A stretch of 64,000 bases of DNA from Bacteroidota bacterium (GTDB taxonomy: Bacteria > Bacteroidota > Bacteroidia > B-17B0 > Aurantibacillaceae). Location of the stretch: contig JAFDXR010000028.1 of NCBI GenBank assembly GCA_018267825.1, positions 1 through 64,000 on the forward strand, written 5' to 3'. The first letter of the stretch is position 1; every line of letters starts with the position of its first letter. Positions 149 to 63,763 of the stretch are shown one piece after another. The notes beneath the pieces are model-generated. The model saw only the letters and a list, made by a program, of their open reading frames with translations. It had not been told where the DNA came from and ran no database searches. The position numbers and the translations under genes were made by a program.

Positions 149-3100
149 ATGAGACTTACCATTATTCTCAGCATTTTCTTACTTTTTCTCAAAACAACTT
201 CGGCCCAGATGGGTGTTACGGTCAATTCCAATGCCATGCAACTGGCGCAGGTTATTGCCGGATTCGGCGTTACTGTCAGCAATGCATCTATCAGTTGCAG
301 CAGTACGGGGGCAGGAACATTTACATACACGGGCACACACCTTGGATTAACAGGTGGTGTATTGCTTACAACGGGCGATGCCACCACTGCAGCTCAGGCT
401 CAAACCGTTTTTTCCAGTACATCCTCCGGTAATATCATAACTGACCCCCAACTGACCGCTATTGATGCTTCTGCCACCAATGATGTCTGTAAACTGGAAT
501 TTGATTTTGTGCCGATCTGCCCGACAATCAGTATCAAGTATGTGTTCGGCTCCGAAGAGTATCCTACATTCGTGGGATCCATTAACGATGCTTTCGGTAT
601 ATTTCTGACGGGTCCGAATCCAGCAGGTGGTAGTTTCAATAACCAGAACATAGCATTATTACCTAACGGACAACCGGTTTCAATTAATAACGTCAACTCT
701 TCATCCAATTCACCCTCGTTTGTAGCGAACTATAACCTGAGTTATGGTGATATAGTGTATGATGGTTACACAGTTCCTATTACATCCAGCGCCACAGTGA
801 CGCCTTGTCAGAGTTATCATATTAAGTTTGCCATCGCTGATGCTTCCGATGAAGCGTATGATTCCGGAGTATTTCTTCAGTACGATGGTTTAAGTTGTGC
901 CAATACCCCGACGATTACGCCGAGTTCAACCGCGAGCTCATGTACGGGTAATACAGGTTCTGCATCTGTTGCAGTAACGGGGGCCACGCCAACTGCCTAT
1001 TCGTGGCAACCCGGAGGGCAAACCACCAGCAGCATTACATCACAAGCTCCGGGTACATATACCTGCGTACTCACATTCTCGGCAGCCTGTACAACGTACA
1101 CCCAATCGCAGGTTGTGACTATTGCCGGTACGGGTGTTACACCCACTGTGGCCGTGAGCAGTAATACGCCCTGTACAGGTGGCAACCTTTCATTAACCGC
1201 CAATTCAAATGGTACCGGTTTCACATGGACAGGCCCGAACAGTTTTTCTTCAACCACGCAAAACCCAACTGTTACAGGTGTTTCAGCGGCCGGGGCCGGT
1301 GTATATACCCTTGTGGTGACCAGTGCCGGTGGTTGTTCACAAACCACTACACTGAATATCACCTTATCACCGAGTCCGACAGTAACCGTTAACTCGCCCA
1401 TTGTTTGCGCAGGCAGCACCGCTACCCTCAACGCATCCGGTGCCAGTACATATGCCTGGACTGCAGGATTGAGTGGTTCAACAGGAAGCAGTGTTACAGG
1501 AAGTCCTGCAGCAACAACGGTGTATACAGTTACCGGAACGTCTGCAGCGGGTTGTACGGGAACAGCCACATCTACCATTACAGTAGTTTCAAACCCATCG
1601 ATTACGGTTACCAATGCGACGGTATGTGCCGGTGGTTCAGCTACATTGACGGCGAGCGGCGCATCAACTTATAACTGGAGCCCAGCAACCGGACTCAGTA
1701 CGACAACAGGAAGTGTCGTAACCGCCAACCCTTCAGCAACAACGGTTTATACGGTTTCGGGCAGTGTAGGTACCTGTACGGCTGCTCCAGGAACAGGAAC
1801 ACTGACGGCATCGCCAAACCCAACGGTGACGGCCTCTGCCAATACACCGATCTGTGCGCCATCCACCCTGAGCTTAACGGCCAATGGTGGTACAAGCTAT
1901 AACTGGAGCGGTCCCGGAGGTTTCAGTTCAACCTTGCAAAACCCCACGATAGCATCAACCAGTTCGGTAAATACCGGCGTATATACCGTAACCGCTACAG
2001 CATTGGGCTGTAATGCCAGCACCACAGTGAGTGTTACCATCCTGGGAAGTTCTGTCATGGCCTTGCCAACGATTCCGGCGGCCTGTCTCAACAGTAATGT
2101 AAGTCTGAATGCGCCTGCAGGTGGCACGGCATACATCTGGTCGGGTCCGAATGGATTTACATCGACCCAGCAAAGCCCGGTTATCAATGGCGTTACGATC
2201 GTGAACACAGGTGTTTATACGGTATCTGTAACCGTTGGTGCTTGTGTAAATACCGGAACAGTCAATGTCAGTACGATCCCGGCCATCAGCTTCCTGACGA
2301 TTCCGGCTGACGCTGTGATCTGTGCGCAACGTTCTGCTACATTGAGCTCACAGGCACAGGGAGGAAGCGGAACTTATGGATATTCGTGGAGCCCTGCAAC
2401 GGGGCTAGATAACCCATCTGCAGCCATTGTTGTGGCAAGTCCTTCGGCTACGCAGGCATATACGGTAACAGCAACTGATGCCAATTGCCCTTCTGCGCCA
2501 ACGGTTACAGCCGTTGCCACTGTCACCGTGAATCCGTTACCGGTTGTAACATTCTCGGCACTGGCTACTTCGGGCTGTGAACCTTTCTGTACCGATTTCG
2601 CTTCACAGAGCACGCCTACAGCTCTCAATTCACTGTGGATGTTCAGTACCGGTCAGAGTGTGTCCGGAAATGTACTGACACCATTCTGTTTCAACGGACA
2701 TGGTACTTACGATGTTAAATTGATCGTAACAGATATTAATGGCTGTGTGGATAGTCTTATAAAACCGTCGTACATAACGGTGTATCCTAAACCAATTGCC
2801 GATTTCAGCTGGTACCCGCTCACACCTACCATTATATCAAGTAAAGTAGACTTTACAGACCAGTCGACGGTAGGCGCACCTATGACCAACTGGAGCTGGA
2901 ATTTCGGCGATTTTTATTCACCGCTTTCATCGGATACATCCAGCTTACAGAATCCATCACACGTGTATCCGAATATCGATTCTTATTCGGTAACGCTCGC
3001 TGTTACCAATCAATATGGATGTAAGGATACCGTGACCAAGGTGTTGGTTGTGGAAGATGAATTTGCCTTTTATATCCCGAATGCCTTTACGCCATGGGTG

Positions 3101-3343
3101 CCCGATAACCGGAATGATGTTTTTTCTGTAGCAGGTACAGGCTTTAAATCCGAAGATTTTAAAATGTACATTTTCGACCGTTGGGGTGAAATGATCTTCT
3201 ATTCCGAAGATCCTTACAAGGGCTGGGATGGTCATGTAAAAGGCGGTAAAATGGCCAAACAGGATGTGTATGTATACAAGATTATCCTGAAAGACTTTAA
3301 AGACAAGAAACATGAATATGTGGGTCATGTAACGGTTTTATAA
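149..3343 (+). CDS. Large secreted adhesin-like protein with a T9SS type-B (gliding-motility-associated) C-terminal sorting domain. It has a signal peptide, an N-terminal choice-of-anchor-like domain, about seven SprB/Ig-like repeats and a PKD domain
   Basis: N-terminus MRLTIILSIFLLFLKTTSAQ is a signal peptide. The C-terminal ~90 aa (FYIPNAFTPWVPDNRNDVF...DRWGEMIF...YKGWDG...YVYKI) match the CHU_C/T9SS type-B CTD pattern. WNFGD is a PKD-like motif. Repeated ~75-aa units contain YTVTxT..GC motifs. Confidence 0.8.
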   Translation: MRLTIILSIFLLFLKTTSAQMGVTVNSNAMQLAQVIAGFGVTVSNASISCSSTGAGTFTYTGTHLGLTGGVLLTTGDATTAAQAQTVFSSTSSGNIITDPQLTAIDASATNDVCKLEFDFVPICPTISIKYVFGSEEYPTFVGSINDAFGIFLTGPNPAGGSFNNQNIALLPNGQPVSINNVNSSSNSPSFVANYNLSYGDIVYDGYTVPITSSATVTPCQSYHIKFAIADASDEAYDSGVFLQYDGLSCANTPTITPSSTASSCTGNTGSASVAVTGATPTAYSWQPGGQTTSSITSQAPGTYTCVLTFSAACTTYTQSQVVTIAGTGVTPTVAVSSNTPCTGGNLSLTANSNGTGFTWTGPNSFSSTTQNPTVTGVSAAGAGVYTLVVTSAGGCSQTTTLNITLSPSPTVTVNSPIVCAGSTATLNASGASTYAWTAGLSGSTGSSVTGSPAATTVYTVTGTSAAGCTGTATSTITVVSNPSITVTNATVCAGGSATLTASGASTYNWSPATGLSTTTGSVVTANPSATTVYTVSGSVGTCTAAPGTGTLTASPNPTVTASANTPICAPSTLSLTANGGTSYNWSGPGGFSSTLQNPTIASTSSVNTGVYTVTATALGCNASTTVSVTILGSSVMALPTIPAACLNSNVSLNAPAGGTAYIWSGPNGFTSTQQSPVINGVTIVNTGVYTVSVTVGACVNTGTVNVSTIPAISFLTIPADAVICAQRSATLSSQAQGGSGTYGYSWSPATGLDNPSAAIVVASPSATQAYTVTATDANCPSAPTVTAVATVTVNPLPVVTFSALATSGCEPFCTDFASQSTPTALNSLWMFSTGQSVSGNVLTPFCFNGHGTYDVKLIVTDINGCVDSLIKPSYITVYPKPIADFSWYPLTPTIISSKVDFTDQSTVGAPMTNWSWNFGDFYSPLSSDTSSLQNPSHVYPNIDSYSVTLAVTNQYGCKDTVTKVLVVEDEFAFYIPNAFTPWVPDNRNDVFSVAGTGFKSEDFKMYIFDRWGEMIFYSEDPYKGWDGHVKGGKMAKQDVYVYKIILKDFKDKKHEYVGHVTVL
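899..2549 (+). repeat. Protein-level tandem array of about seven SprB/Ig-like ~75-residue repeats inside the T9SS cargo gene
   Basis: Recurring block Px(V/I)TVxxxxxxxCxGxxxxLxAxGxxxYxWxxxxGxxxxxxxVxxxPxxTTVYTVTxTxxxGC seen seven times in the translation. The DNA is diverged, so these are not identical DNA repeats. Confidence 0.5.
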
Positions 3344-5463: not shown

Positions 5464-6963
5464 TTAAAGCGTGTCGATATTGAGTTGTTTTACAAATTGA
5501 AGCGTGGCTTCCAGCTCGCGATACATGATCTTATCTTCTTCAATGAAAGGAATTGTTTTGCGAAGATCGGCAATTAGCTTTTCGATTTTTGCCGATGATT
5601 TTAAGGGCCTTCTGAACTCCAGGGCCTGTGCGGCATTGAGAAGCTCAATCGACAGGATACGCTCCACGTTTTCAATAACCTTGTAGCATTTTGTAGCAGC
5701 GTTGGCACCCATACTCACATGGTCTTCCTGTCCGTTGGACGATACAATACTGTCGGCGCTGGCAGGGCTGCACAGTTGTTTGTTCTGGCTGGCAATACTG
5801 GCTGCCGTGTACTGCGGAATCATAAAACCAGAGTTAAGCCCGGGTTTTGCAACCAGGAAAGCCGGTAAACTACGGATGCCCGAAATAAGCTGGTAGGTGC
5901 GGCGCTCTGAAATATTGCCGAGTTCTGAAATGGCAATGGCCAGGAAATCAAGGGCCAGAGCCAATGGCTGTCCGTGAAAGTTACCACCACTGATAATTTC
6001 ATCATCTTCCGGAAATACGGTTGGATTATCGGTTACAGCATTTACCTCTGTTTCAAAAACAGAATTGACATACGCCGTGGTATCTTTGGTGGCTCCATGA
6101 ACCTGTGGAATACAGCGGAACGAATACGGATCCTGCACCTGCACTTTTGTTTGTGCCAGGATCGCGCTGCCTTCGAGCAGGGCCCGGAAATAGCGGGCTG
6201 TCTGCAATTGCCCTTTGTGCGGGCGAATGAGGTGAATATTATCTTTAAACGGATCAATCCGTCCATCGAAGGCATCCAGTGAAATGGCCCCGATGGTATC
6301 GGCCAGTTTATTGAGCCGGTCCGATTTCAGCAGGCACCATACGCCGTAGGCACTCATAAACTGTGTGCCATTGAGCAGGGCCAGGCCTTCTTTCGATTTG
6401 AGGGCAATAGGACTTAAACCCAGTTGTTTGAATACTTCAGCCGTTTCATAACGGTTGCCACGGTAATTTACTTCGCCGAGTCCCAGTAAGGGTAGGCACA
6501 AATGGGCGAGGGGCGCTAAATCGCCGGAGGCACCCAGGGAGCCCTGCTGGTATACAATGGGGTAAATGTGGTGATTGTACAAATCCACCAAGCGTTCCAC
6601 GGTTTGCAATTGCACGGCACTCTTGCCGTACGACAAGGCCTGTATTTTCAATAGAAGCATAAGTCGCACAATTTCGAGAGGTGCTTCATCGCCCATACCA
6701 CAAGCATGACTCATAACAAGGTTAGCCTGTAACTGTTCAATTTCAGTATCGGGAATAATTACATTGCAAAGCGAGCCAAAACCTGTATTGATGCCATATA
6801 CAGGCTCCTTCTGCGATTTCATTTTTTTATCGAGGTAATCGCGGCAGGCGGTAATGTTTTTTTTGGCAACATCAGACAGGGCCAGTGCAGCGCCCGATTC
6901 GGTAATGTGCTTAATGTCTTTAATAGAAAAAGGTTTGCTGGGGTCTATGGTAAATGTTTTCAT
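5464..6963 (-). CDS. hutH: Histidine ammonia-lyase (aromatic amino acid lyase family, MIO cofactor)
   Basis: 499 aa. ASG triad in GSLGASGDLAPLAHL (the MIO-forming motif) and overall HAL/PAL family architecture. Confidence 0.85.
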   Translation of the reverse strand: MKTFTIDPSKPFSIKDIKHITESGAALALSDVAKKNITACRDYLDKKMKSQKEPVYGINTGFGSLCNVIIPDTEIEQLQANLVMSHACGMGDEAPLEIVRLMLLLKIQALSYGKSAVQLQTVERLVDLYNHHIYPIVYQQGSLGASGDLAPLAHLCLPLLGLGEVNYRGNRYETAEVFKQLGLSPIALKSKEGLALLNGTQFMSAYGVWCLLKSDRLNKLADTIGAISLDAFDGRIDPFKDNIHLIRPHKGQLQTARYFRALLEGSAILAQTKVQVQDPYSFRCIPQVHGATKDTTAYVNSVFETEVNAVTDNPTVFPEDDEIISGGNFHGQPLALALDFLAIAISELGNISERRTYQLISGIRSLPAFLVAKPGLNSGFMIPQYTAASIASQNKQLCSPASADSIVSSNGQEDHVSMGANAATKCYKVIENVERILSIELLNAAQALEFRRPLKSSAKIEKLIADLRKTIPFIEEDKIMYRELEATLQFVKQLNIDTL

Positions 6964-7001
6964 TGATAATGATATGAAATGAAAAATACTTCTGACTTTA
7001 T

Positions 7002-8546
7002 TTACTTTGCAGAATGGTATTTCTTAATCTCTCTAATGATTTGGCTGATAGTTAATGGATTTTCTGACTGAGTTGAAGTTTCTAAGTTTTTAAGTGGATA
7101 TTTTTTTAAGGACATTTCGTCTGAACCCACAGTGCAAACAAAAGGGATTTGTTTTTTGTTAGCATATTCAAATTGCTTACCAATTTTAGATTCGTTTGAA
7201 TATATCTCGACGTTAATTCCCTTTTCACGAAACCTCTTAGCCAATTTCAAACAGTGTAGTTGTTCCTTTTGACCAAATGTTGCAAAAAGAACCTGAGTAG
7301 ATGATATGCTATTTATCTTTTCTGGAAAAAGTCTTAGTTCTGTCATCACATCATAAATGCGGTCAATACCAAAGGAAATGCCGACACCCGACATGTTTTT
7401 CAGTCCGAAGATGCCTGTTAGGTCATCGTAACGGCCACCTCCCAAAATACTTGGAGTAAAAGTGCCCTCATTTGCTTTAGCTTCGAATATAGTGCCCGTG
7501 TAATAATTCAGCCCCCTTGCAAGAGAAATGTCTAATTCTATTTTTACATGTTTTAAACCTTGAGTTTTAATGTTTTTAAACAGAAATTCTAGTTCTTCAA
7601 TACCTTTTTGAAGAATGTGATTAGACCTGTAGTCCGAAACCGTCTTCAAAAAATTAAGCACCTCCTCATTTTCAATTTTTTTTGCAGGATTGTTTATTTG
7701 TCTAACGCCATCGCTTTTTATAAGAATAACTTCGAGAAGTTTATTAATTTGTTCATGAGAGAAACCCTTGCTAAATAGTTCGTTTTCTACACCAATTTGC
7801 CCTATTTTATCCATCTTATCAATGGCTATTGCAATATCCATAGCCTTGTCGGTAGCATTAATATATTGAGCAATTCCTGTTAAGAGTTTTCTATTATTAA
7901 GTTTGATTAAGACTGGAATTTTCAAATCAGAAAATGTTTTGTCCATTAAGGCGATTAACTCCAGTTCATTTATAAGAGAGTTACTGCCAATTATGTCAGC
8001 GTCACACTGATAAAACTCTCTGTAACGCCCTTTTTGAGGTCTATCCGCCCTCCAAACAGGTTGAATTTGATATCTTTTAAAGGGAAAGGTTAAACTGTGC
8101 TGGTTCATAACCACATAACGAGCAAAAGGTACTGTTAGGTCATAGCGAAGAGCTTTTTCGGAAATATTCCTTGTAAGTTCTTTTGAAGAAAATCTACTTT
8201 CAACTGTTGAAAATGAATTTCTAAATTTAAAAGGGCTATTTGAATTATTGTTACTTCTTTTATAAAAACTTCTTGCTAAGGCCTTTTTGAGAAGGTTTAG
8301 ATTTTTATCTCTAATTTCTTCTATATACTCGCCAGAATCGAGAATTTTAAATATCAGCTTATCTCCCTCATCACCATATTTACCGGTTAGAGTATCCAGA
8401 TTTTCCATTGCAGGAGTTTCAATTGGAGAAAAACCGAATAATTGGAAATTGCGTTTTACAATATCGAAAATATATTGGCGCTTGTGCATTTCGGCAGGTC
8501 CGAAATCGCGCGTGCCTCTTGGAATGGATGGTTTCATAATTGACAA
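7002..8546 (-). CDS. hisS: Histidine--tRNA ligase with markedly AT-rich composition and a low-complexity insertion
   Basis: 514 aa. Class II motifs (GTRDFGPAEM, FKRYQIQPVWRADRPQKGRYREFYQCD, GGGRYDDL). NNNSNSPFKFRNSFS insertion. Hand-counted GC is about 32-33% in three 60-nt windows, versus roughly 38-58% in flanking genes. Confidence 0.9.
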   Translation of the reverse strand: MSIMKPSIPRGTRDFGPAEMHKRQYIFDIVKRNFQLFGFSPIETPAMENLDTLTGKYGDEGDKLIFKILDSGEYIEEIRDKNLNLLKKALARSFYKRSNNNSNSPFKFRNSFSTVESRFSSKELTRNISEKALRYDLTVPFARYVVMNQHSLTFPFKRYQIQPVWRADRPQKGRYREFYQCDADIIGSNSLINELELIALMDKTFSDLKIPVLIKLNNRKLLTGIAQYINATDKAMDIAIAIDKMDKIGQIGVENELFSKGFSHEQINKLLEVILIKSDGVRQINNPAKKIENEEVLNFLKTVSDYRSNHILQKGIEELEFLFKNIKTQGLKHVKIELDISLARGLNYYTGTIFEAKANEGTFTPSILGGGRYDDLTGIFGLKNMSGVGISFGIDRIYDVMTELRLFPEKINSISSTQVLFATFGQKEQLHCLKLAKRFREKGINVEIYSNESKIGKQFEYANKKQIPFVCTVGSDEMSLKKYPLKNLETSTQSENPLTISQIIREIKKYHSAK

Positions 8547-8605
8547 TAAATTGAGCGGTAAATTTAGGAAATATGAGCCAAAGAAGCGGTAAATCCCAAA
8601 AGAAT

Positions 8606-9067
8606 CTAAGCCAGCGATGCTGCAATAGCGCGGCAGGCTTTATTAACCAGGTTGAACACTTCCTCAAAGCCCTGTTCGCCACCAAAATAGGGATCGGGAA
8701 CTTCGCGGTCCTCTCCCGGAAAAGCACTGTTGAGCAGCAGATCCACCTTGGCTTTATCTGCTTCATGGCGCGCCAGTTTCAATACATTCTGCCGGTTGCT
8801 ATGATCCATCACATATATTTTATCAAAAGCATCAAAATCGGCTGTTTTGAATTGCCTTGCACGAAGCGGCGAAAGGTCTACGCCATGCCTGGCCGCGTTG
8901 GCAGTGCTTCGTTTGTCGGGAGCTTCACCCACATGGTAGTTGGAAGTGCCGGCAGAATCTACCACCAGATCCAAGGCTTTGTCTTCAATCAGTTTCAGCA
9001 TGATGCCTTCGGCCAGTGGCGAACGGCAAATATTGCCGAGGCATACCATCAGTATTTTTGTTGGCAT
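8606..9067 (-). CDS. Low-molecular-weight protein-tyrosine phosphatase
   Basis: 153 aa. CX5R P-loop VCLGNICRSPLAEG at the N-terminus and a DPYF-type motif near the C-terminus. Confidence 0.85.
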   Translation of the reverse strand: MPTKILMVCLGNICRSPLAEGIMLKLIEDKALDLVVDSAGTSNYHVGEAPDKRSTANAARHGVDLSPLRARQFKTADFDAFDKIYVMDHSNRQNVLKLARHEADKAKVDLLLNSAFPGEDREVPDPYFGGEQGFEEVFNLVNKACRAIAASLA

Positions 9068-18143: not shown

Positions 18144-19163
18144 TTAGTTGCGGGAGATCACCGAGGTACGCAATACCATTTTTACCGGTTCAGCACCTTC
18201 TGATTTCGAATCGATCAGTTTCAGTACAAGGTTTGCAGATTCTGTCCCGATTTTTTCAAGCGGCTGGGCCACTGAAATAATACTCGGCTTCACAAAATTA
18301 AACAGGTCGATATCGTCAAACGAAGCAACATGAATTTTGTTTTTCAGTTTATCGATGCCAAACTCATTGAATACCTCCAGGCAGGCTGTAGCCAGGTGGT
18401 TGTTAAGGGTGTAGATGGCATCTATGTTTGTATTGGTATTAAGAACCTTCACCAGTTTTTCGCGTACTTCATTCTTGATGTTGTTGAATGAAATTTCGAT
18501 CAGGTTTTCCTGCTTGAAAGGAATGTTGTATTTCTTCAACGCATCTTTAAAGCCTTTCACGCGGTCTTTCAGTGAACTGATATATGCCGGAGAAACATTG
18601 AGTGCAAGAATATTTTTACATCCTTTATGAATCAGGAGGTCTGTAATTTCGAATGAGCCCTGGTAATTATCAGCCACGACATAATTGGCTGCAAAGTCGG
18701 GCAGGTAGCGGTCGATAAAAACAATCGGGAATTTTTTCAGACGATCTGTTTTATAAATAGAGCCGTCGTTACTTGTTGTTGCAATAATAAGTCCGTCAAC
18801 AATTTGTTGTTCTGCGAGGAGTTGTACCAGTTTTTTTTCACGTTCAATATCTTCTTCGGTGCTACATACCATCAGGTTGTAACCCTTTGCTGCCAGTGCT
18901 TTTTCGGCATACTTGGCAATCTGCGAATAAAACGGGTTTGAAATATCTGCCACCAGCAAACCTACAAGGTTACTTTTACCTGTACGCAATGCACGTGCAA
19001 ATACGTTTGGTGTATATTGAAGTTCGCTGGCTTTCTCAAGTACTTTTTGTTGGGTCTTTTTGCTGATGCCATACGAATCACCCTTGCCATTTATAACCAT
19101 TGATACCAATGTTTTGGATACATTAAGTTCTTTGGCAATGTCTTCTAGTAATGTTTTTTTCAT
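18144..19163 (-). CDS. LacI-family transcriptional regulator
   Basis: 339 aa. N-terminal HTH (LEDIAKELNVSKTLVSMVINGKG) and a periplasmic-binding-protein-like effector domain. Confidence 0.85.
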   Translation of the reverse strand: MKKTLLEDIAKELNVSKTLVSMVINGKGDSYGISKKTQQKVLEKASELQYTPNVFARALRTGKSNLVGLLVADISNPFYSQIAKYAEKALAAKGYNLMVCSTEEDIEREKKLVQLLAEQQIVDGLIIATTSNDGSIYKTDRLKKFPIVFIDRYLPDFAANYVVADNYQGSFEITDLLIHKGCKNILALNVSPAYISSLKDRVKGFKDALKKYNIPFKQENLIEISFNNIKNEVREKLVKVLNTNTNIDAIYTLNNHLATACLEVFNEFGIDKLKNKIHVASFDDIDLFNFVKPSIISVAQPLEKIGTESANLVLKLIDSKSEGAEPVKMVLRTSVISRN

Positions 19164-19249
19164 AAAACAGTTTAGTTTACGGGGGTTAGAAAATTATATT
19201 AGTAGATGATTTTTCGCAATTCATAGGCTAATATAACAAATATATAGTA

Positions 19250-19266
19250 TTCTAAACGATTTAGAA
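19250..19266. promoter_or_regulatory. Inverted repeat TTCTAAAcgaTTTAGAA in the LacI / aminotransferase divergent intergenic region. Candidate LacI-family operator
   Basis: 7-bp perfect arms with a CG-containing centre, 85 bp upstream of the LacI start codon. Confidence 0.3.
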
Positions 19267-19482
19267 ATTTTTTTTAATCAGTAGGCTTACCATTTTACGA
19301 AGTATTTATGGGGCCTCAATGATCCGAAAAATTTGTATTTTTGCCTAAAACGTTTTAAATTTTCATCATGGGAATCACCTGTCCGTAAGTCTTTTCGTTC
19401 TCTTCTTTTCCGGGGTTTTCAATCGAATGCCCATAGTTTTCAACGTCGTTAATATCTTTTATTCGGCGTTATCCACATAGTT

Positions 19483-19490
19483 ATATATTT
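19483..19490 (+). promoter_or_regulatory. Candidate Bacteroidota sigma-A -7 box (TAnnTTTG) upstream of the aminotransferase gene
   Basis: TATATTTG lies 24 bp upstream of ATG 19514. No clear -33 TTG at canonical spacing. Confidence 0.3.
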
Positions 19491-19513
19491 GCCCTGAAAA
19501 ATTCTGACCATTT

Positions 19514-37613: not shown

Positions 37614-39572
37614 TTGAAAAAAGGACTGTTTATACTTCTTTTATTAGTAACAGATCTCGTTTGTATTTCGCAGACGCCTGATCCTGTTGTGAAGAAGTTT
37701 ATCAAAGTCTTTAATACAAAAAACTACTCCGACAGGATCAATATGTTTGATACACTGCCGGATGACCTGAAGCAGGCTTACTATCCGTTTTTAAAAGATT
37801 CTATTGACGCTATTCGTGTCAGGGCATTTGCCGACAACCGGGTGAATATTATCAATAAAATTGATAAGATCGATGGGATCCGTTTGTACCACGAACATAA
37901 CTACTCTTCCGCTATTCCGGTTTTATTGCGGGTAATCAATACCGACAAAACCCTGACGGATCTGGATAGTCTCAGGATTATGTCATGCCTGAAAAAATCC
38001 TATCTTAAGATCAGATCGCTTTCCAAAGCTCTTGAAATTCATAAAATGCTGACGGATATTTTTGGCAAGCGTTCCCAGAAATATGCCAAGTGGTATTTTC
38101 ATCCGCCACTGAGTTCAATATACTATGAGCTCAATATTTATGATGAAGCAATCCGCCAGCATCGCCTGGAGTTCAATGAGTCAACTGAGCGCGGGGACCG
38201 GGTGTTACTGAGCTATCACAATAATGAAGGTGTTTTCTGGAATAAACTGCATAAATCGGATAGTGCCTTGTTTCATTTCAATTATGCCAAAAAACTGGCT
38301 CACAAACTCTACGGGCAATCTGATAAGGTCGATGATAAGTTTACTATCGGGTTAATCGACGGAAACATCGGGCAGGTATACAAGGAGCAAAAGAAATTCC
38401 GTGAAGCCATTCCTTTACTTAAAGAAGATATATACTGGAGCAAAGCCGATCATGATTTCGAAAATGCAGCTATCAGCCACAATGAAATTGGCGAATGTTA
38501 TATCAATCTCTCGGAGTTTAACCTTGGGCTGAAGCACCTCGATAGTGCCCGTGTCATACTTAGGGCCATGGATGTGGTAACGCCTTATCTGACTAATATG
38601 AGGCTGTATGGCTTGTATTATGAGCGAAGCGGCAATTTCCAGGAAGCCATCCGTTTCTATAAGAGATACCTGAACTTTAATGATTCCATTAATGCAGCAG
38701 AAAAGTTTAAGGAACTCATCAGTCAGCAGGTGGCTATGCAGATGGATGAAAAAGAAAGGATCATTCGTCAGAAACAGTATATTATCGATAAAGAAGCCGT
38801 CAATAAAAAACACCAGGAAACCGTACGACGATTCATGTTTGCCGGATTACTTGTTTTACTGTTTGTACTGTTCATTGTCTTTATTATGTACAAACGGGCA
38901 CAGAAACAAAAAGAGCTTCTGGAGATCAAGAATGATGAGATTCATCAGCAGAACATGAAAATCGAAAAATCGCTCCAGGAGAAAGAATTCCTCGTGCGTG
39001 AAGTGCATCACCGGGTTAAAAACAATCTTCAGATCGTATCCAGTTTACTCAACCTGCAAATAGGCATGACCAACAGCGAGGAGATCAAAGAGGCTCTTTC
39101 AGAGGCTTATGGACGTATCGGTTCTATTGCACTTGTTCATCAGCTACTGTACCGGAATAAAGAGCTGACAAATATTTCAATTAAAGAATATTTTGAAAAT
39201 CTGCTGGTACGTATTGAGCACAGTTTTTCTTCGGAAAACTCCGGTATTGTGCTTGAAAAACATATTGCTGATGTACAACTCGATCTCGATCGCGCCATCC
39301 CCTTGGGATTAATCATCAATGAGATAGTTTCCAATGCCTACAAACATGCCTTTCCTGATAAAAAGGGGCTTATTGAAGTGAAGTTCGATAAGCATGCTGA
39401 AACCTACGAACTTATCATCAGTGATAATGGTGTTGGGTTCAAAGAGCCTTTTGAGTCGGAACATGAAGGTTCTTTTGGGATTGAAATTATTAAAATCCTT
39501 ACCGAACAGATCAATGGCCGCATTCAGGTGACCGATAAAAATGGTACCCGCTATTCCATTGTTTTTAATTAG
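37614..39572 (+). CDS. TPR-repeat sensor histidine kinase (HisKA_2/HWE-like phosphoacceptor, membrane-anchored)
   Basis: 652 aa. Signal peptide, TPR-like N-terminal half, a TM helix (FMFAGLLVLLFVLFIVFIMY), H-box HHRVKNNLQIVSSLLNLQ, and HATPase motifs (NAYKHAF, DNGVGF, GSFGIEI). Confidence 0.85.
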   Translation: MKKGLFILLLLVTDLVCISQTPDPVVKKFIKVFNTKNYSDRINMFDTLPDDLKQAYYPFLKDSIDAIRVRAFADNRVNIINKIDKIDGIRLYHEHNYSSAIPVLLRVINTDKTLTDLDSLRIMSCLKKSYLKIRSLSKALEIHKMLTDIFGKRSQKYAKWYFHPPLSSIYYELNIYDEAIRQHRLEFNESTERGDRVLLSYHNNEGVFWNKLHKSDSALFHFNYAKKLAHKLYGQSDKVDDKFTIGLIDGNIGQVYKEQKKFREAIPLLKEDIYWSKADHDFENAAISHNEIGECYINLSEFNLGLKHLDSARVILRAMDVVTPYLTNMRLYGLYYERSGNFQEAIRFYKRYLNFNDSINAAEKFKELISQQVAMQMDEKERIIRQKQYIIDKEAVNKKHQETVRRFMFAGLLVLLFVLFIVFIMYKRAQKQKELLEIKNDEIHQQNMKIEKSLQEKEFLVREVHHRVKNNLQIVSSLLNLQIGMTNSEEIKEALSEAYGRIGSIALVHQLLYRNKELTNISIKEYFENLLVRIEHSFSSENSGIVLEKHIADVQLDLDRAIPLGLIINEIVSNAYKHAFPDKKGLIEVKFDKHAETYELIISDNGVGFKEPFESEHEGSFGIEIIKILTEQINGRIQVTDKNGTRYSIVFN

Positions 39573-60832: not shown

Positions 60833-63679
60833 TTATTTAAATACGTTAATAGTACCCTTCAGGTCATATTTCTGGGCATCGAGGCCTGTGGCTTTTATGA
60901 CATAGAAATAGGTACCATCCGATACAGTATTTCCACCTTTGTTTTTGCCATCCCAGTTCATGTTGCCGTTTTCTGTGGCTTCAAACATCTTTAATCCCCA
61001 GCGGTCATACACAATCATGTGAATCTCACCCATATTAACGGTACCGAGTTTAAATACATCATTCACGCCATCGCCATTCGGCGTAAATACGTTTGGAATG
61101 GTGAGGAACGATACCAGGTCTACCGTAATAACCACGGTATCCATATCCACGCAGTAACCATTGGTGGCTGTAAGCACAACCGTGTAAGTGCCCTGAACCG
61201 GGTAATTGGTCGATGGATTGGTGGATGTGCTGGTTGATCCGTTATCAAAATCCCAAAGGTATGACAGCGCATTATTACTGTTGTTGATGAAGTTCACATC
61301 CAGCGGCATAAGTCCGTGCGTTGGGTTTGCGGTAAAGCTGGCCGTAATGGTTTCGTGAGAAACCGCATAGGTGGCAGTGGCTGTACAACCATTTACGGGA
61401 CTTGTACCGGTTACAGTGTAATTACCGGCCGCAGATACATTGTATGTTTGCGACGTAGGTCCGCTGGTCCAGGTATACGTTGTTCCTCCCACATTCGAAT
61501 TGCCGCTCAGGCTCAGTGAGTTGGTAGAGCATGGAATAACAGTACCGGGTGCTGTAATGGTAATAAGCGGAGCTGTGGTATTGGTTACTACTGATATTGT
61601 TGTAGTAGCCATACAACCGGTAAGTGTATTGGTAACAATGGCTGTATAGGTTCCGGCACTGGTTACAGGCAATGGATTGGTGCTGGTTGTACTGGTTGGA
61701 GTGCCTGGTATCTGCCATGTAAATATAGTATTGGACGTGGTGGATGCTGCCGTGAGCTGAACAGTGTGCGTTACACAGGTCAGTGAACTGCCTGGTGTCG
61801 CAGAAGAGCTGGCATTCGGGGCTCCCGGAGCTATTACGTTTGTTGTATAGGTTGTTTTACACCCGTTTACCGGATTGGTTACAATGAGGCTATAGGTTCC
61901 GACAGCAGGTGCCTGGGCCGGGTTACCGATCGGGTTACCTGTTGGACTTACCCATCCGAGGTAGGCATTGGCAGGAGATGTAGGCACACCGGTAAGTACA
62001 ATGGTGGATGTGTTGCATATTTTGGTGAATGTAGCCTGCGGCGCGGCGGTATCGCTTGTTATATTCAGTGTGATAGTAGCTACGCAGGTACTGATGGTAT
62101 TGGTAGCCACAAATGTGTAGGTTCCCGGGCTTGTTACGGATACCGTATTGCCCGGAATAGCTCCTGCAGGGCCTGTCCAGCTGATGGAAGTATAGGTTGA
62201 TGTCGGCGTTCCGTTCAGGGTAATGGTTTGCGTATTACAGTTCAGTAACAGGCCAGGCGAGCTGGTGATGCTGTAGTTCGGCGCATCGGTAAAGGTATTA
62301 ATGGAAAGGGTTGTGGTGGTAGAACAGCCTACATTATCTGATACGGTGACCGTATAATTGGTGCCTGGTGAAAGCCCCGAAGATACAGATCCGGTTCCGG
62401 CAGCCGGAGTCCAGGAGTAAGTGAAAGGTGGTGTACCGCTGGAGGCATTGATCGTAGCGCTTCCCACGGCATTGGTACAGGTTGGTTGTGCTGTTACATT
62501 ACTGGCGGTTGGGTTTGGTGTCACAAAGAGATTCAGGAGTTTAACAATAGGACCCAGGCAGGTTCCTGTAGGGCTCATGGTTAATGTATACTGACCCGGA
62601 GTTGTGGTTGTGATTACAGAACCTGTTGCAGCTGTAATACCGCTTCCGGCAGGGCCGTCCCAGTTGTATGGACCAACACCGTATGGCGCTGTAATGGTTG
62701 CAGACATAGCACCGCAGGTCGATACGTTAATCGGAATAAGTGGTGTGGCATCATATAAGGTACCATTAAGACCTACCTGCATTGGGTAGCAGGCACAGTC
62801 GAAATAACCGTAACCGTAGTGACCACCCTGTGTACAGTCGCCCACAGTGATCTGTATTGTAACGTAAGAGCCAATATAAGGCGACAGGTCGAGTGTTTTT
62901 ACGGTCCAGGTGTGGTAATAAACACCGGCAGAGGTGTTCTGAATCCAGCCGGCTGTAACACTGGCCGATTGCGAACATAAGCTACTAGGTGCAGCAATCG
63001 GAATATAAGGACAAGGGAGCGTATTACCTGCGCTGTCGATAACGCTTACGTTCATGTAAGGCTGATCGGTGCAGGCGTGACCGGCATCTTCCAGAATCCC
63101 GGCATAGGCAAACTGGAAAATGGCATTGGATGGCGTTACGCTGAAAGTTTGAGAAATACGTTGTACGGAGTAATCCGGGTTGTTATCGTTCAGTTGTACA
63201 ATTTTTGATCCGCCTAATGGAGAGACCAGGGAAACAGCTGAAACAAGGGGATCTGTACCGGTACCATTGATCACACTGGCAATACCGCCTGCAGTAGGGC
63301 AGCAGCCGGCCATGGTCGATGAGTTGGAGTTTGAACCACTCGTATGTGTCCAACCGAATAAAGAACCGGCTTCGAAATCGATATTGGTACAGGCAGGCTG
63401 AATCACATTCGTGGTTGTTGCCGCAGCTTTACCAAATACAGGAACATCCTGATGAGCCAGGTGGAAGCGGTGGTTGATATACTCGCGCCTGGCCTTATAC
63501 ATATATGATTTGTATTCGTTTCCGAAGAAATGATTATGCAGGGCATCATCATTGGCTCTCTTTTCATCGAAACCCGTGAGCGAGTCAGGAGAAAATACAT
63601 AATTAAGAACCGGCAACTGCGCATGAAGTGCTGAGCATATAGTGGTAGCCAGCACTGTGCTTAAGAATAGTTTTTTCAT
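60833..63679 (-). CDS. Second large T9SS type-B C-terminal-domain adhesin-like protein (SprB/Ig-like repeats plus PKD domain)
   Basis: C-terminus LTIPNVFTPNGDGVNDVFK...YDRWGLKMF...GTYFYVIKA is the gliding-motility CTD. PKD motif WDFDNGS. The ORF opens at 63733; the internal ATG at 63679 (MKKLFLSTVLATTICSALHAQ) supplies the signal peptide. Confidence 0.8.
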   Translation of the reverse strand: MKKLFLSTVLATTICSALHAQLPVLNYVFSPDSLTGFDEKRANDDALHNHFFGNEYKSYMYKARREYINHRFHLAHQDVPVFGKAAATTTNVIQPACTNIDFEAGSLFGWTHTSGSNSNSSTMAGCCPTAGGIASVINGTGTDPLVSAVSLVSPLGGSKIVQLNDNNPDYSVQRISQTFSVTPSNAIFQFAYAGILEDAGHACTDQPYMNVSVIDSAGNTLPCPYIPIAAPSSLCSQSASVTAGWIQNTSAGVYYHTWTVKTLDLSPYIGSYVTIQITVGDCTQGGHYGYGYFDCACYPMQVGLNGTLYDATPLIPINVSTCGAMSATITAPYGVGPYNWDGPAGSGITAATGSVITTTTPGQYTLTMSPTGTCLGPIVKLLNLFVTPNPTASNVTAQPTCTNAVGSATINASSGTPPFTYSWTPAAGTGSVSSGLSPGTNYTVTVSDNVGCSTTTTLSINTFTDAPNYSITSSPGLLLNCNTQTITLNGTPTSTYTSISWTGPAGAIPGNTVSVTSPGTYTFVATNTISTCVATITLNITSDTAAPQATFTKICNTSTIVLTGVPTSPANAYLGWVSPTGNPIGNPAQAPAVGTYSLIVTNPVNGCKTTYTTNVIAPGAPNASSSATPGSSLTCVTHTVQLTAASTTSNTIFTWQIPGTPTSTTSTNPLPVTSAGTYTAIVTNTLTGCMATTTISVVTNTTAPLITITAPGTVIPCSTNSLSLSGNSNVGGTTYTWTSGPTSQTYNVSAAGNYTVTGTSPVNGCTATATYAVSHETITASFTANPTHGLMPLDVNFINNSNNALSYLWDFDNGSTSTSTNPSTNYPVQGTYTVVLTATNGYCVDMDTVVITVDLVSFLTIPNVFTPNGDGVNDVFKLGTVNMGEIHMIVYDRWGLKMFEATENGNMNWDGKNKGGNTVSDGTYFYVIKATGLDAQKYDLKGTINVFK
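61330..62900 (-). repeat. Protein-level tandem SprB/Ig-like repeats inside the second T9SS cargo gene
   Basis: Recurring YTxxVTxxxxGC / TxTVNxxP units in the translation. Boundaries are approximate. Confidence 0.4.
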
Positions 63680-63763
63680 AATGGTTGAAAAATATTTTAA
63701 GAGTCCTAATTTAATCGAATTATAGTAACGCACTGGTTTTAATGAGTGAGTCTATAAAATGAA

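What the first reader, a model, noticed from the sequence alone, without database searches (positions are those of the whole stretch)
7002..8546. Housekeeping hisS is a gene-sized AT-rich island with a low-complexity insertion
Hand counts on three 60-nt windows inside hisS give about 32-33% GC. Adjacent hutH and the LMW-PTP gene run about 38-58% in the windows counted. The composition break coincides with the gene boundaries. The protein (514 aa) is about 60-90 aa longer than typical bacterial HisS and contains an Asn/Ser-rich segment (KRSNNNSNSPFKFRNSFSTVESRFSS). Gene-sized compositional replacement of an aminoacyl-tRNA synthetase suggests horizontal acquisition, either a xenologous displacement or a second and possibly inhibitor-resistant copy. 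It sits directly next to hutH, which is also histidine metabolism, and that may reflect a histidine-linked unit.
Basis: seen in the sequence. Interest (0 to 1): 0.6.

Follow-up and report, generated by a model that had tools for sequence, protein, structure and literature searches.

The report
Imported hisS replacing the native copy
In this Bacteroidota genome the essential histidyl-tRNA synthetase gene sits in its normal place but has the base composition, codon usage and sequence of a different, AT-rich relative. It was most likely swapped in by recombination, a known way that tRNA synthetase genes evolve.

Summary
hisS (7002-8537, minus strand; the real start is the ATG at 8537, giving 511 aa) has GC 0.346 and GC3 0.293. 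The window's other genes average 0.449 and 0.481. The break falls within about 100 nt of the gene borders.

The gene is an intact Bacteroidota-type HisRS at a locus conserved across the phylum: hisS lies just upstream of hutH in 29 loci. In all 28 other loci compared, hisS matches the GC of its own genome. Six relatives form a family with the window by HutH and share its local gene order. Against the best syntenic relatives, L088 and L084, neighbour proteins are 58-89% identical. HisS is the least conserved of all, at 56-58% by tblastn. By alignment it is 62-66% identical to every family member, whereas family HisS proteins are 75-93% identical to one another.

Codon usage, GC and amino-acid composition all point to a former home genome of about 31-35% GC. 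The best explanation is in-place replacement of the whole gene by an allele from an unsampled low-GC Bacteroidota lineage. This is not a cross-phylum xenolog, and hutH did not come with it. A second hisS elsewhere in the genome could not be tested.

The Asn/Ser-rich segment lies in a loop whose length varies across the phylum. This is a new example of a known phenomenon, of moderate to low interest.

The parts
7002..8537 (-). hisS coding sequence (511 aa plus stop): an intact histidine--tRNA ligase, and the AT-rich island itself
   Evidence: TIGR00442 scores 375.8 bits against a cutoff of 286.75. Pfam finds tRNA-synt_His and HGTP_anticodon. GC is 0.346 and GC3 0.293. It keeps 158 of the 161 columns that are at least 97% conserved among 144 homologs.
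8538..8546 (-).
   Evidence: All homologs start MKPSIP at the ATG at 8537, and P0001 is 511 aa.
8463..8537 (-). First 25 codons of hisS, with host-like codon choice; a possible native remnant and site of the 5' crossover (hint only)
   Evidence: GC3 is 0.48 here against 0.28 for the rest of the gene (binomial p = 0.03 uncorrected; two other blocks reach similar values). Nucleotide identity to the family relatives L088 and L084 is 0.89 and 0.87 here, against 0.64 and 0.70 in codons 26-60. However, third-position identity in blocks of 20 codons is as high as here (0.70-0.75) in some blocks of native hutH.
8538..8605 (-). LMW-PTP/hisS intergenic region (68 nt) holding the likely hisS promoter; appears native
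   Evidence: It shares TTCCTAAATTTACC (8557-8570) and the TAG(A/T)TTCTTTTG stretch after the PTP stop with the family relative L088. The core TAAATTT(A/G) is present in all four family loci compared. Its match to the Bacteroidota -7 promoter consensus TAnnTTTG is from my own knowledge, not a test.
8190..8303 (-). Site-1 loop (aa 79-116), containing most of the Asn/Ser-rich low-complexity segment (aa 93-118, 8184-8261)
   Evidence: It lies between KLIFKILDSG and EKALRYDLTVPFARY in the catalytic domain. The solved Bacteroidota HisRS 6nhi has about 5 aa here. The anchor-to-anchor length is 57 aa in the window, against a median of 30 and a range of 23-99; 6 of the 145 sequences, the window among them, are at least that long. 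The loop has GC 0.254, and the gene stays at 0.353 without it.
7572..7871 (-). HisRS insertion domain (aa 223-322), in its long form with about 16 extra residues (aa 274-289, 7671-7718)
   Evidence: The long form occurs in 18 of 145 sequences (window, L002, P0004, P0010, P0023, P0027 and others). The short form occurs in 127, including the family relatives L084, L088, L089 and L090.
7023..7307 (-). Anticodon-binding domain (aa 411-505), followed by a C-terminal tail KKYHSAK (7005-7025) that no homolog has
   Evidence: Pfam HGTP_anticodon matches aa 418-509. This domain is 51-55% identical to the family, against 67-73% within the family. The tail extends beyond all aligned homologs.
6964..7001 (-). 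hisS/hutH intergenic region (38 nt, AT-rich); the 3' junction lies here or in the last codons of hisS
   Evidence: hutH is host-like from its first 25-codon block (GC3 0.44), and the last hisS blocks are 0.24-0.33. There is no recognisable similarity to the relatives' spacers.
5464..6963 (-). hutH (histidine ammonia-lyase): the native downstream neighbour and reference gene
   Evidence: GC 0.479 and GC3 0.504. It is 83-85% identical to every family member.
8606..9067 (-). Low-molecular-weight protein tyrosine phosphatase: the native upstream neighbour
   Evidence: Pfam LMWPc, E = 3e-36. GC 0.504 and GC3 0.506. It is 74-76% identical to the relatives.

Best explanation
The native hisS of this Bacteroidota genome was replaced in place by a whole-gene allele from another Bacteroidota lineage. 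That lineage has not been sampled and has a genome of about 31-35% GC.

Shown:
- The gene is an intact HisRS at the ancestral hisS-hutH position.
- Its flanks are native.
- The gene itself is compositionally foreign, and every domain of the protein is more diverged than its neighbours predict.

Inferred:
- The exchange happened by recombination within the conserved syntenic neighbourhood.
- The upstream crossover probably lies inside the nearly invariant first ~25 codons, because the promoter region and those codons look native.
- The downstream junction lies between the last codons of hisS and the start of hutH.
- The imported enzyme now serves as the cell's HisRS.
- The transfer is recent relative to the time synonymous sites need to equilibrate, because GC3 shows no drift towards the host value.
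- The Asn/Ser-rich loop is a by-product of long residence in an AT-rich genome, at a surface loop that tolerates length change.
For: 1. Composition. hisS GC tracks locus GC at r = 0.99 across 26 Bacteroidota loci. The window's hisS lies 9.4 SD below expectation for GC and 6.5 SD for GC3, and 3.8 SD above for FYMINK (Phe, Tyr, Met, Ile, Asn, Lys) content. These three measures predict a home genome of 0.344 +/- 0.011, 0.350 +/- 0.014 and 0.314 +/- 0.036 GC.
2. Codon usage. The log-likelihood ratio is -0.098, against 0.160 +/- 0.047 for 39 window genes. That is 5.5 SD away and just inside the range of genes from a 35%-GC relative.
3. Null distribution. In 61 metagenome loci, hisS minus flank GC is never below -0.021. 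The window gives -0.115.
4. Locus. The gene order thyA-frr-orf193-hutH-hisS-PTP-ybjN-aminotransferase-prmC-tonB is the same as in L088 and nearly the same in L084. The shorter L090 matches over the part it covers.
5. Divergence. Against L088 and L084, the neighbours are 58-89% identical, and HisS is the lowest at 56-58%. Family HisS identities of 0.75-0.93 track HutH at 0.81-0.97, including the low-GC member L089. The window's HisS is 0.62-0.66 identical to every family member and to the sister clade.
6. Whole-gene pattern. Every domain is more diverged than the within-family range.
7. Tree conflict. HutH gives family monophyly at 100% bootstrap. For HisS it is 8.5%.
8. Function retained. 158 of 161 conserved columns and all signature motifs are present.
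9. Precedent in the same gene family. L002 against L089, and P0004 against P0045, are clear recombinant mosaics.
10. Published mechanism. aaRS homeoalleles are known to be exchanged by recombination in flanking regions with synteny kept (PMC3191353).
Against: - No donor was found. The nearest HisS in 5.8 billion proteins and in the metagenome contigs is 61-66% identical. That is odd for a compositionally fresh import, and it requires an unsampled or fast-evolving source lineage.
- No sister species of the host is available (best HutH 85%), so the native allele that was lost cannot be shown directly and the event cannot be dated.
- The breakpoints are not resolved. The 5' signal is within the variation seen in native genes.
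- The trees are neighbour-joining only, and the window's HisS is a long branch whose exact position is unstable.
- The sequence comes from a metagenome-assembled genome, and no reads could be inspected.
- Only 64 kb were available, so a second hisS cannot be excluded.
Confidence: 0.72

Rival explanations
1. The AT-rich hisS is an extra, acquired copy that coexists with a native hisS elsewhere in the genome. In this view it landed at, or was kept at, the old locus after the native gene moved, and it may be maintained because it resists an inhibitor or toxin.
For: Close relatives by HutH (L004-L009, L086) have no hisS next to hutH, so hisS does move within this group. Only 64 kb of the genome could be examined. 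The compositional evidence for foreign origin fits this reading as well.
Against: No second hisS lies in the window. The gene occupies exactly the ancestral slot, with the native promoter region and native flanks. The neighbours are housekeeping genes with no biosynthetic or resistance context. In the published cases, usually only one homeoallele is found per genome (PMC3191353).
Confidence: 0.1
2. The gene is native and vertically inherited. It evolved fast and drifted towards AT in place, for example under relaxed constraint or because it lost some GC-favouring process.
For: In one neighbour-joining tree the window's HisS was sister to L002's at 98% bootstrap, in the same broad clade as in the HutH tree. 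L002 also has a long-form insertion domain. The divergence is concentrated in the loops, the insertion domain and the anticodon-binding domain.
Against: Genes 38 and 68 nt away have fully native composition. No other of 87 Bacteroidota hisS loci is more than 0.021 below its flanks or 0.076 below hutH in GC3. Amino-acid composition has shifted as well, to that of genomes at 31-35% GC. 158 of 161 conserved positions are kept, which argues against relaxed selection. Once L089 is added, the sister relation to L002 collapses to 22.5%, and L002's own divergence is explained by a local mosaic. No process is known that would act on a single gene.
Confidence: 0.08
3. The island is an assembly artefact. 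The metagenome assembler joined reads from a co-occurring low-GC relative with the same gene order into this contig.
For: The source is a MAG contig (P0001 and P0121 are named 'MAG... Bacteroidetes bacterium'). The hisS 5' end holds a stretch that is nearly identical among the relatives and could bridge two genomes. No independent assembly contains the junction.
Against: Two switches exactly bracketing one gene would be needed. Known low-GC relatives share only 62-73% nucleotide identity in the flanking genes, too little for shared long k-mers. No recognisable homology exists at the 3' junction. hisS is the only compositional outlier in 64 kb. No low-GC organism with this allele has ever been sampled on its own.
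Confidence: 0.07

Closest known systems
aaRS 'homeoalleles' exchanged by biased gene transfer, with replacement through recombination in conserved flanking genes (TyrRS in Gamma- and Deltaproteobacteria; archaeal ThrRS and SerRS; Andam & Gogarten 2011, PMC3191353)
   Same: A divergent aaRS gene of identical function replaces the resident one among related organisms. The syntenic neighbourhood is kept. One form is found per locus, and different forms occur in close relatives.
   Different: The alleles here are only moderately diverged (62-66% identity, against about 29% for the ThrRS forms). The long-form sequences do not make a coherent deep clade. The case was recognised mainly by a strong compositional signature, and it concerns HisRS in Bacteroidota. 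I found no such report in the searchable literature.
Vertical Bacteroidota HisRS (solved example PDB 6nhi; family relatives L084, L088, L089, L090)
   Same: The same enzyme type, motifs and domain order. E = 1e-136 to 6nhi. The same chromosomal position upstream of hutH.
   Different: GC3 is 0.29 in a genome where genes average 0.48. It is 10-30 identity points further from its family than family members are from each other. The site-1 loop has 38 aa where 6nhi has about 5, and the insertion domain is the long form.
Acquired second-copy, inhibitor-resistant aaRS genes (for example mupirocin-resistant IleRS2; from general knowledge, not tested here)
   Same: A horizontally acquired aaRS gene whose composition is foreign to its host.
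   Different: Those genes are additional copies, usually on plasmids or next to a biosynthetic cluster. This one sits in the native slot among housekeeping genes. No close homolog is on any plasmid or phage (50% identity at best), and no second copy is seen.
Classical genomic island
   Same: A sharp, localised drop in GC with foreign codon usage.
   Different: It consists of one gene exactly. It has no integrase, no tRNA gene, no flanking direct repeats and no accessory cargo, and it replaces a core gene instead of adding to the genome.

Membership tests
Histidine--tRNA ligase (class IIa HisRS, TIGR00442) | Scores above the curated equivalog cutoff, and is not the HisZ paralog | tested here: met
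   TIGR00442 scores 375.8 bits against a cutoff of 286.75. HisZ (TIGR00443) scores 146, below its cutoff of 271.65.
Histidine--tRNA ligase (class IIa HisRS, TIGR00442) | Class II motifs 1-3 and the HisRS signature segments are present | tested here: met
   FGFSPIETP, YQIQPVWRADRPQKGRYREFYQCDADIIG, LRYDLTVPFARY, SILGGGRYDDL and GVGISFGIDRIYDVM are all present. 158 of the 161 columns that are at least 97% conserved are retained.
Histidine--tRNA ligase (class IIa HisRS, TIGR00442) | C-terminal HGTP-type anticodon-binding domain | tested here: met
   PF03129 matches aa 418-509 with E = 1.9e-14.
Histidine--tRNA ligase (class IIa HisRS, TIGR00442) | Charges tRNA-His with histidine | not testable with these tools
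   This needs an aminoacylation assay or complementation. No tRNA gene lies in the window.
aaRS homeoallele / orthologous replacement in a syntenic context | Divergent alleles of the same function occupy the same syntenic position in related genomes | tested here: met
   Window, L002, L084, L088, L089 and L090 all have PTP-hisS-hutH-orf193. The HisS forms differ (511, 496 and 460-468 aa).
aaRS homeoallele / orthologous replacement in a syntenic context | The gene tree conflicts with the reference (organismal) relationships | tested here: met
   HutH gives family monophyly at 100% bootstrap, against 8.5% for HisS. The window's HisS is equidistant (0.62-0.66) from its family and the sister clade. 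Caveat: the trees are neighbour-joining, the reference tree rests on a single gene (supported by identity values for 9 more neighbours), and the window is a long branch.
aaRS homeoallele / orthologous replacement in a syntenic context | Foreign compositional signature confined to the replaced gene | tested here: met
aaRS homeoallele / orthologous replacement in a syntenic context | Two well-separated allele clades, each spread across higher taxa | tested here: inconclusive
   Long (18) and short (127) insertion-domain forms exist. The short form is coherent (0.68 mean identity), but the long form is heterogeneous (0.43-0.50). Outside that domain no split between the two forms is visible.
aaRS homeoallele / orthologous replacement in a syntenic context | Donor lineage or donor-type allele identified | tested here: not met
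   The best relatives are 61-66% identical.
aaRS homeoallele / orthologous replacement in a syntenic context | Only one allele per genome | not testable with these tools
   No second hisS lies in the 64 kb. The rest of the genome is not available.
Mobile genomic island | Integrase or transposase, tRNA target, flanking direct repeats, accessory cargo | tested here: not met
   The spacers are 38 and 68 nt with no extra ORFs. There are no tRNA genes and only chance-level short repeats.
Resistance-type second aaRS copy | Carried on a plasmid or phage, or linked to a biosynthetic or immunity cluster | tested here: not met
   The best plasmid hit is 50% identical and the best phage hit 45.5%. The neighbours are thyA, frr, hutH, LMW-PTP, ybjN, an aminotransferase and prmC.

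The most novel reading that the evidence does not exclude
Bacteroidota HisRS may carry two exchangeable, fast-diversifying surface modules: the site-1 loop and the insertion domain. In this reading they are repeatedly swapped between lineages by recombination. The window shows a whole-gene swap, and L002 (against L089) and P0004 (against P0045) show cassette-sized swaps. The pattern would reflect diversifying or balancing selection on the enzyme's surface, for example from a toxin, phage factor or natural inhibitor that targets HisRS, with the window's allele being a selected resistant form. A linked possibility is that the widely conserved, often almost gapless hisS-hutH pair is a co-transcribed unit that couples histidine charging to histidine breakdown.
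Probability: 0.12. Interest if true: 0.6.

Novelty: new member of a known kind. Interest (0 to 1): 0.33.

Why it matters
- **A clean example.** This is an unusually clear natural case of an essential translation gene replaced exactly in place. The replacement is visible because donor and recipient differ by about 10 points of GC.
- **Binning and phylogeny.** A single-copy marker gene in a MAG can carry a foreign history while everything around it is native. That matters for marker-based phylogeny and for contamination checks: hisS would look like contamination here.
- **Recurrence in this gene family.** Together with the two mosaics found along the way, the case suggests that hisS in this part of Bacteroidota recombines with divergent alleles more than once.
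- **Limits.** It does not reveal a new mechanism.

Tried and rejected
- **Exact-protein look-ups.** Look-ups of the window's HisS (514- and 511-aa versions) found no contig on record.
- **P0002.** It first looked like a closer relative (837 bits). It is in fact two HisRS units fused in tandem on a 55% GC contig, each only 47-51% identical.
- **Window and L002 as sisters.** A first tree made them a 98% sister pair with two long branches. Adding L089 showed that L002's branch comes from a local mosaic, and the pairing fell to 22.5%. I therefore dropped the idea of a shared divergent allele in a common ancestor.
- **5' breakpoint at codon 25.** The signal did not clearly exceed the block-to-block variation in native hutH, so it is kept only as a hint.
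- **Structure prediction.** The AlphaFold model was poor (mean pLDDT 62, catalytic core below 50). I did not use it and ran no fold search. The insertions were placed by sequence alignment to PDB 6nhi instead.
- **Phage and plasmid searches.** These found no vector candidate.
- **Junction scan.** A scan of metagenome contigs for the hisS/hutH junction found nothing.
- **Donor search.** A protein-seeded scan found nothing closer than 61%.
- **Literature.** Searches for a hisS-hutH linkage and for HisRS insertion-domain recombination found nothing relevant.
- **Repeat scan.** The scan around the gene gave only short, chance-level matches.
Full report
**1. The observation**

The ORF at 7002-8546 on the minus strand exists and contains the quoted Asn/Ser-rich segment.

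- All homologs begin MKPSIP. at the ATG at 8537, so the protein is 511 aa and identical to database entry P0001, a 'MAG: Bacteroidetes bacterium' histidine--tRNA ligase.
- The gene has GC 0.346 and GC3 0.293. The 42 long ORFs of the window (hisS among them) average 0.449 +/- 0.027 and 0.481 +/- 0.048. hisS is the lowest of them, about 3.9 SD from both means.
- The lowest 1536-nt window in the 64 kb is centred on hisS.
- hutH (0.479) and the LMW-PTP gene (0.504) are normal. The change happens within about 100 nt of each gene border.

**2. What the gene is**

- It passes the curated HisRS model (TIGR00442, 375.8 bits against a cutoff of 286.75) and fails the HisZ model.
- It has the HisRS catalytic and anticodon-binding domains and all signature motifs.
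- It keeps 158 of the 161 alignment columns that are at least 97% conserved in 144 homologs.
- The closest solved structure is the Bacteroidota HisRS 6nhi (E = 1e-136), followed by a cyanobacterial enzyme and human cytoplasmic HisRS.
- All close database relatives are Bacteroidota HisRS of about 460 aa, and none exceeds 66% identity.

It is therefore an intact Bacteroidota-type HisRS, not an enzyme from another phylum or domain.

**3. The locus is ancestral**

- A search with hutH found hisS immediately upstream of hutH in 24 of 80 GTDB loci from several Bacteroidota groups, often with almost no spacer.
- Five further relatives share the block PTP-hisS-hutH-orf193: L002, L084, L088, L089 and L090.
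- L088 matches the window over the whole stretch thyA-frr-orf193-hutH-hisS-PTP-ybjN-aminotransferase-prmC-tonB.

The adjacency to hutH is thus an old arrangement, not part of a transferred unit.

**4. The composition is foreign, and the effect can be calibrated**

- Across 26 loci, hisS GC follows locus GC with r = 0.99.
- The window's hisS lies 9.4 SD (GC) and 6.5 SD (GC3) below expectation. Its content of the AT-coded amino acids FYMINK (Phe, Tyr, Met, Ile, Asn, Lys) lies 3.8 SD above expectation.
- Used in reverse, the three relations predict a home genome of 0.344 +/- 0.011, 0.350 +/- 0.014 and 0.314 +/- 0.036 GC.
- The hisS-hutH GC3 difference is -0.001 +/- 0.040 in the other loci and -0.211 here.
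- In 61 independent metagenome loci, hisS is never more than 0.021 below its flanks. Here it is 0.115 below.
- A codon-usage likelihood ratio puts hisS 5.5 SD from the window's genes and at the edge of the range of genes from a 35%-GC relative.
- Removing the low-complexity loop changes little (GC 0.353).

**5. The protein is also out of place**

- Against the best syntenic relatives L088 and L084, the neighbours are 58-89% identical: thyA 88/89, frr 84/88, hutH 83/84, ybjN 81/78, aminotransferase 77/77, PTP 75/76, orf193 64/64, tonB 61/64 and prmC 58/63.
- HisS is the lowest of all at 56/58.
- Within the family, HisS identities of 0.75-0.93 track HutH at 0.81-0.97. This includes the low-GC member L089, whose 460-aa HisS is 75-80% identical to those of the 49-52% GC members. 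A low-GC genome alone does not therefore produce the divergence.
- The window's HisS is 0.62-0.66 identical to every family member, and equally to the sister clade (L012, L026).
- It is more diverged than the within-family range in every domain, which indicates replacement of the whole gene.
- Neighbour-joining bootstrap support for family monophyly is 100% for HutH and 8.5% for HisS.

**6. The junctions**

- The PTP-hisS spacer shares a promoter-like motif and the stretch after the PTP stop codon with L088.
- The first 25 codons of hisS have host-like GC3 (0.48 against 0.28). They are 87-89% identical in nucleotides to L084 and L088, against 64-70% in the next 35 codons.
- This fits a 5' crossover inside the nearly invariant N-terminal coding segment. 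However, third-position identity in blocks of 20 codons is as high as here in some blocks of native hutH, so it is only a hint.
- hutH is host-like from its first codons. The 3' junction therefore lies in the 38-nt spacer or the last codons of hisS, where the protein has a unique seven-residue tail.
- No integrase, tRNA gene or meaningful repeat flanks the gene.

**7. The insertions**

- The Asn/Ser-rich segment (aa 93-118) lies in a loop of the catalytic domain, between KLIFKILDSG and EKALRYDLTVPFARY. The solved enzyme 6nhi has about 5 residues there.
- The length of this loop ranges from 23 to 99 aa among 145 Bacteroidota HisRS. Six sequences, the window among them, are at least as long as the window's 57 aa.
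- The sequence of the loop is unique to this gene, but the site is variable across the phylum.
- A second difference is a longer insertion domain. This form occurs in 18 of 145 sequences scattered among lineages.
- Neither insertion is in the anticodon-binding domain.

**8. Recombination in hisS recurs**

- L002 and its close sister L089 (HutH 95% identical) have HisS proteins that are 91-96% identical in the N-terminus, core and anticodon-binding domain. They are only 48-55% identical in the site-1 loop and the insertion domain.
- At nucleotide level, identity drops from 0.83-0.93 to 0.41-0.67 over codons 233-312.
- P0004 and P0045 are 94-100% identical except in the insertion domain, where they are 45% identical.

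These mosaics show that divergent hisS sequence does get recombined into resident genes in this group.

**9. Explanation and comparison**

The best reading is an in-place orthologous replacement of hisS by an allele from an unsampled low-GC Bacteroidota lineage. It corresponds to the published behaviour of aaRS 'homeoalleles', for which replacement by recombination in conserved flanks with preserved synteny has been described (PMC3191353).

- **Differences from the published cases.** The alleles are only moderately diverged, the long-form sequences are not a coherent clade, and no donor is known.
- **Rivals.** They are an extra copy coexisting with a native hisS elsewhere (not testable here), fast evolution with AT drift in place (hard to reconcile with native genes 38-68 nt away and with retained conserved sites), and an assembly chimera (unlikely given two precise switches and low flank identity, but reads were not available).

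**10. What stays unexplained**

- The gene looks compositionally fresh, yet nothing closer than 61-66% exists in very large databases.
- A fast-evolving, AT-rich source lineage would account for the long branch, the FYMINK-rich protein and the Asn-rich loop. This is inference only.

**11. Verdict**

The finding is real and well supported as a horizontally replaced core gene. The phenomenon is known, so novelty is 'new member of a known kind' and interest is moderate to low.

Noticed in passing
window 5464-8537; loci L002, L010-L014, L022, L026, L027, L031, L033, L035, L040, L043, L054, L057, L058, L068, L070, L074, L079, L081-L084, L088-L090: hisS lies directly upstream of hutH, on the same strand, in 24 of 80 GTDB hutH loci and in 5 further relatives. 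In many of them the spacer is 1-60 nt, so the two genes may be co-transcribed. I found no paper on this linkage.
   Followed up: partly
L002:8135-9625 against L089:413-1795: L002's hisS is a recombinant mosaic. Its backbone is 83-93% identical in nucleotides to that of its sister L089. Codons 233-312 (the insertion domain) are only 41-67% identical, and the site-1 loop is also replaced.
   Followed up: yes
proteins P0004 and P0045: Two HisRS proteins are 94-100% identical in four regions but only 45% identical in the insertion domain, one with the long form and one with the short form. This is a second natural cassette swap.
   Followed up: partly
L001:2680-5142 (protein P0002): An 820-aa gene product consists of two HisRS units in tandem, 51% and 47% identical to the window's enzyme. 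It lies on a contig with 55% GC. It is either a fused duplicate or two genes called as one.
   Followed up: no
L004:8232-11476, L086:8274-11494 (also L005-L009): In the relatives with a 494-497-aa HutH, prmC and tonB abut hutH in inverted orientation, and the aminotransferase-ybjN-PTP-hisS block is absent from the locus. A rearrangement breakpoint therefore lies exactly at the hisS/hutH border in this group.
   Followed up: partly
window 8554-8563 and 8585-8594: The 10-mer ATTTACCGCT (read on the minus strand) occurs twice, 31 nt apart, in the PTP-hisS spacer and nowhere else in the window. One copy overlaps the promoter-like TTCCTAAATTTACC motif.
   Followed up: no
window 7005-7025: The HisS C-terminal tail KKYHSAK extends beyond all aligned homologs. 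It may be a by-product of the 3' recombination junction.
   Followed up: no
window 149-3343 (+) and 60833-63733 (-): Two large PKD and CHU_C (type IX secretion signal) proteins have second-codon-position GC higher than first-position GC (0.57 and 0.54). This is unusual among the window's genes.
   Followed up: no
window 18144-19513 and 37614-39572: There are two milder AT-rich stretches. One covers a LacI-family regulator (GC 0.40) and its upstream spacer. The other is a TPR plus HisKA_2 histidine kinase (GC 0.40, GC2 0.26). Their codon usage stays within the host range.
   Followed up: partly
L154, L111, L168: In three metagenome loci hisS is 0.07-0.10 richer in GC than its flanks. These may be further transfers in the opposite direction, or the flanks may be AT-rich islands.
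   Followed up: no
window 7002-8537 (protein): By sequence, Bacteroidota HisRS is much closer to cyanobacterial (3net) and human cytoplasmic HisRS (E about 1e-63 to 1e-71) than to the Staphylococcus aureus-type bacterial enzyme 1qe0 (E = 7.5e-23).
   Followed up: no
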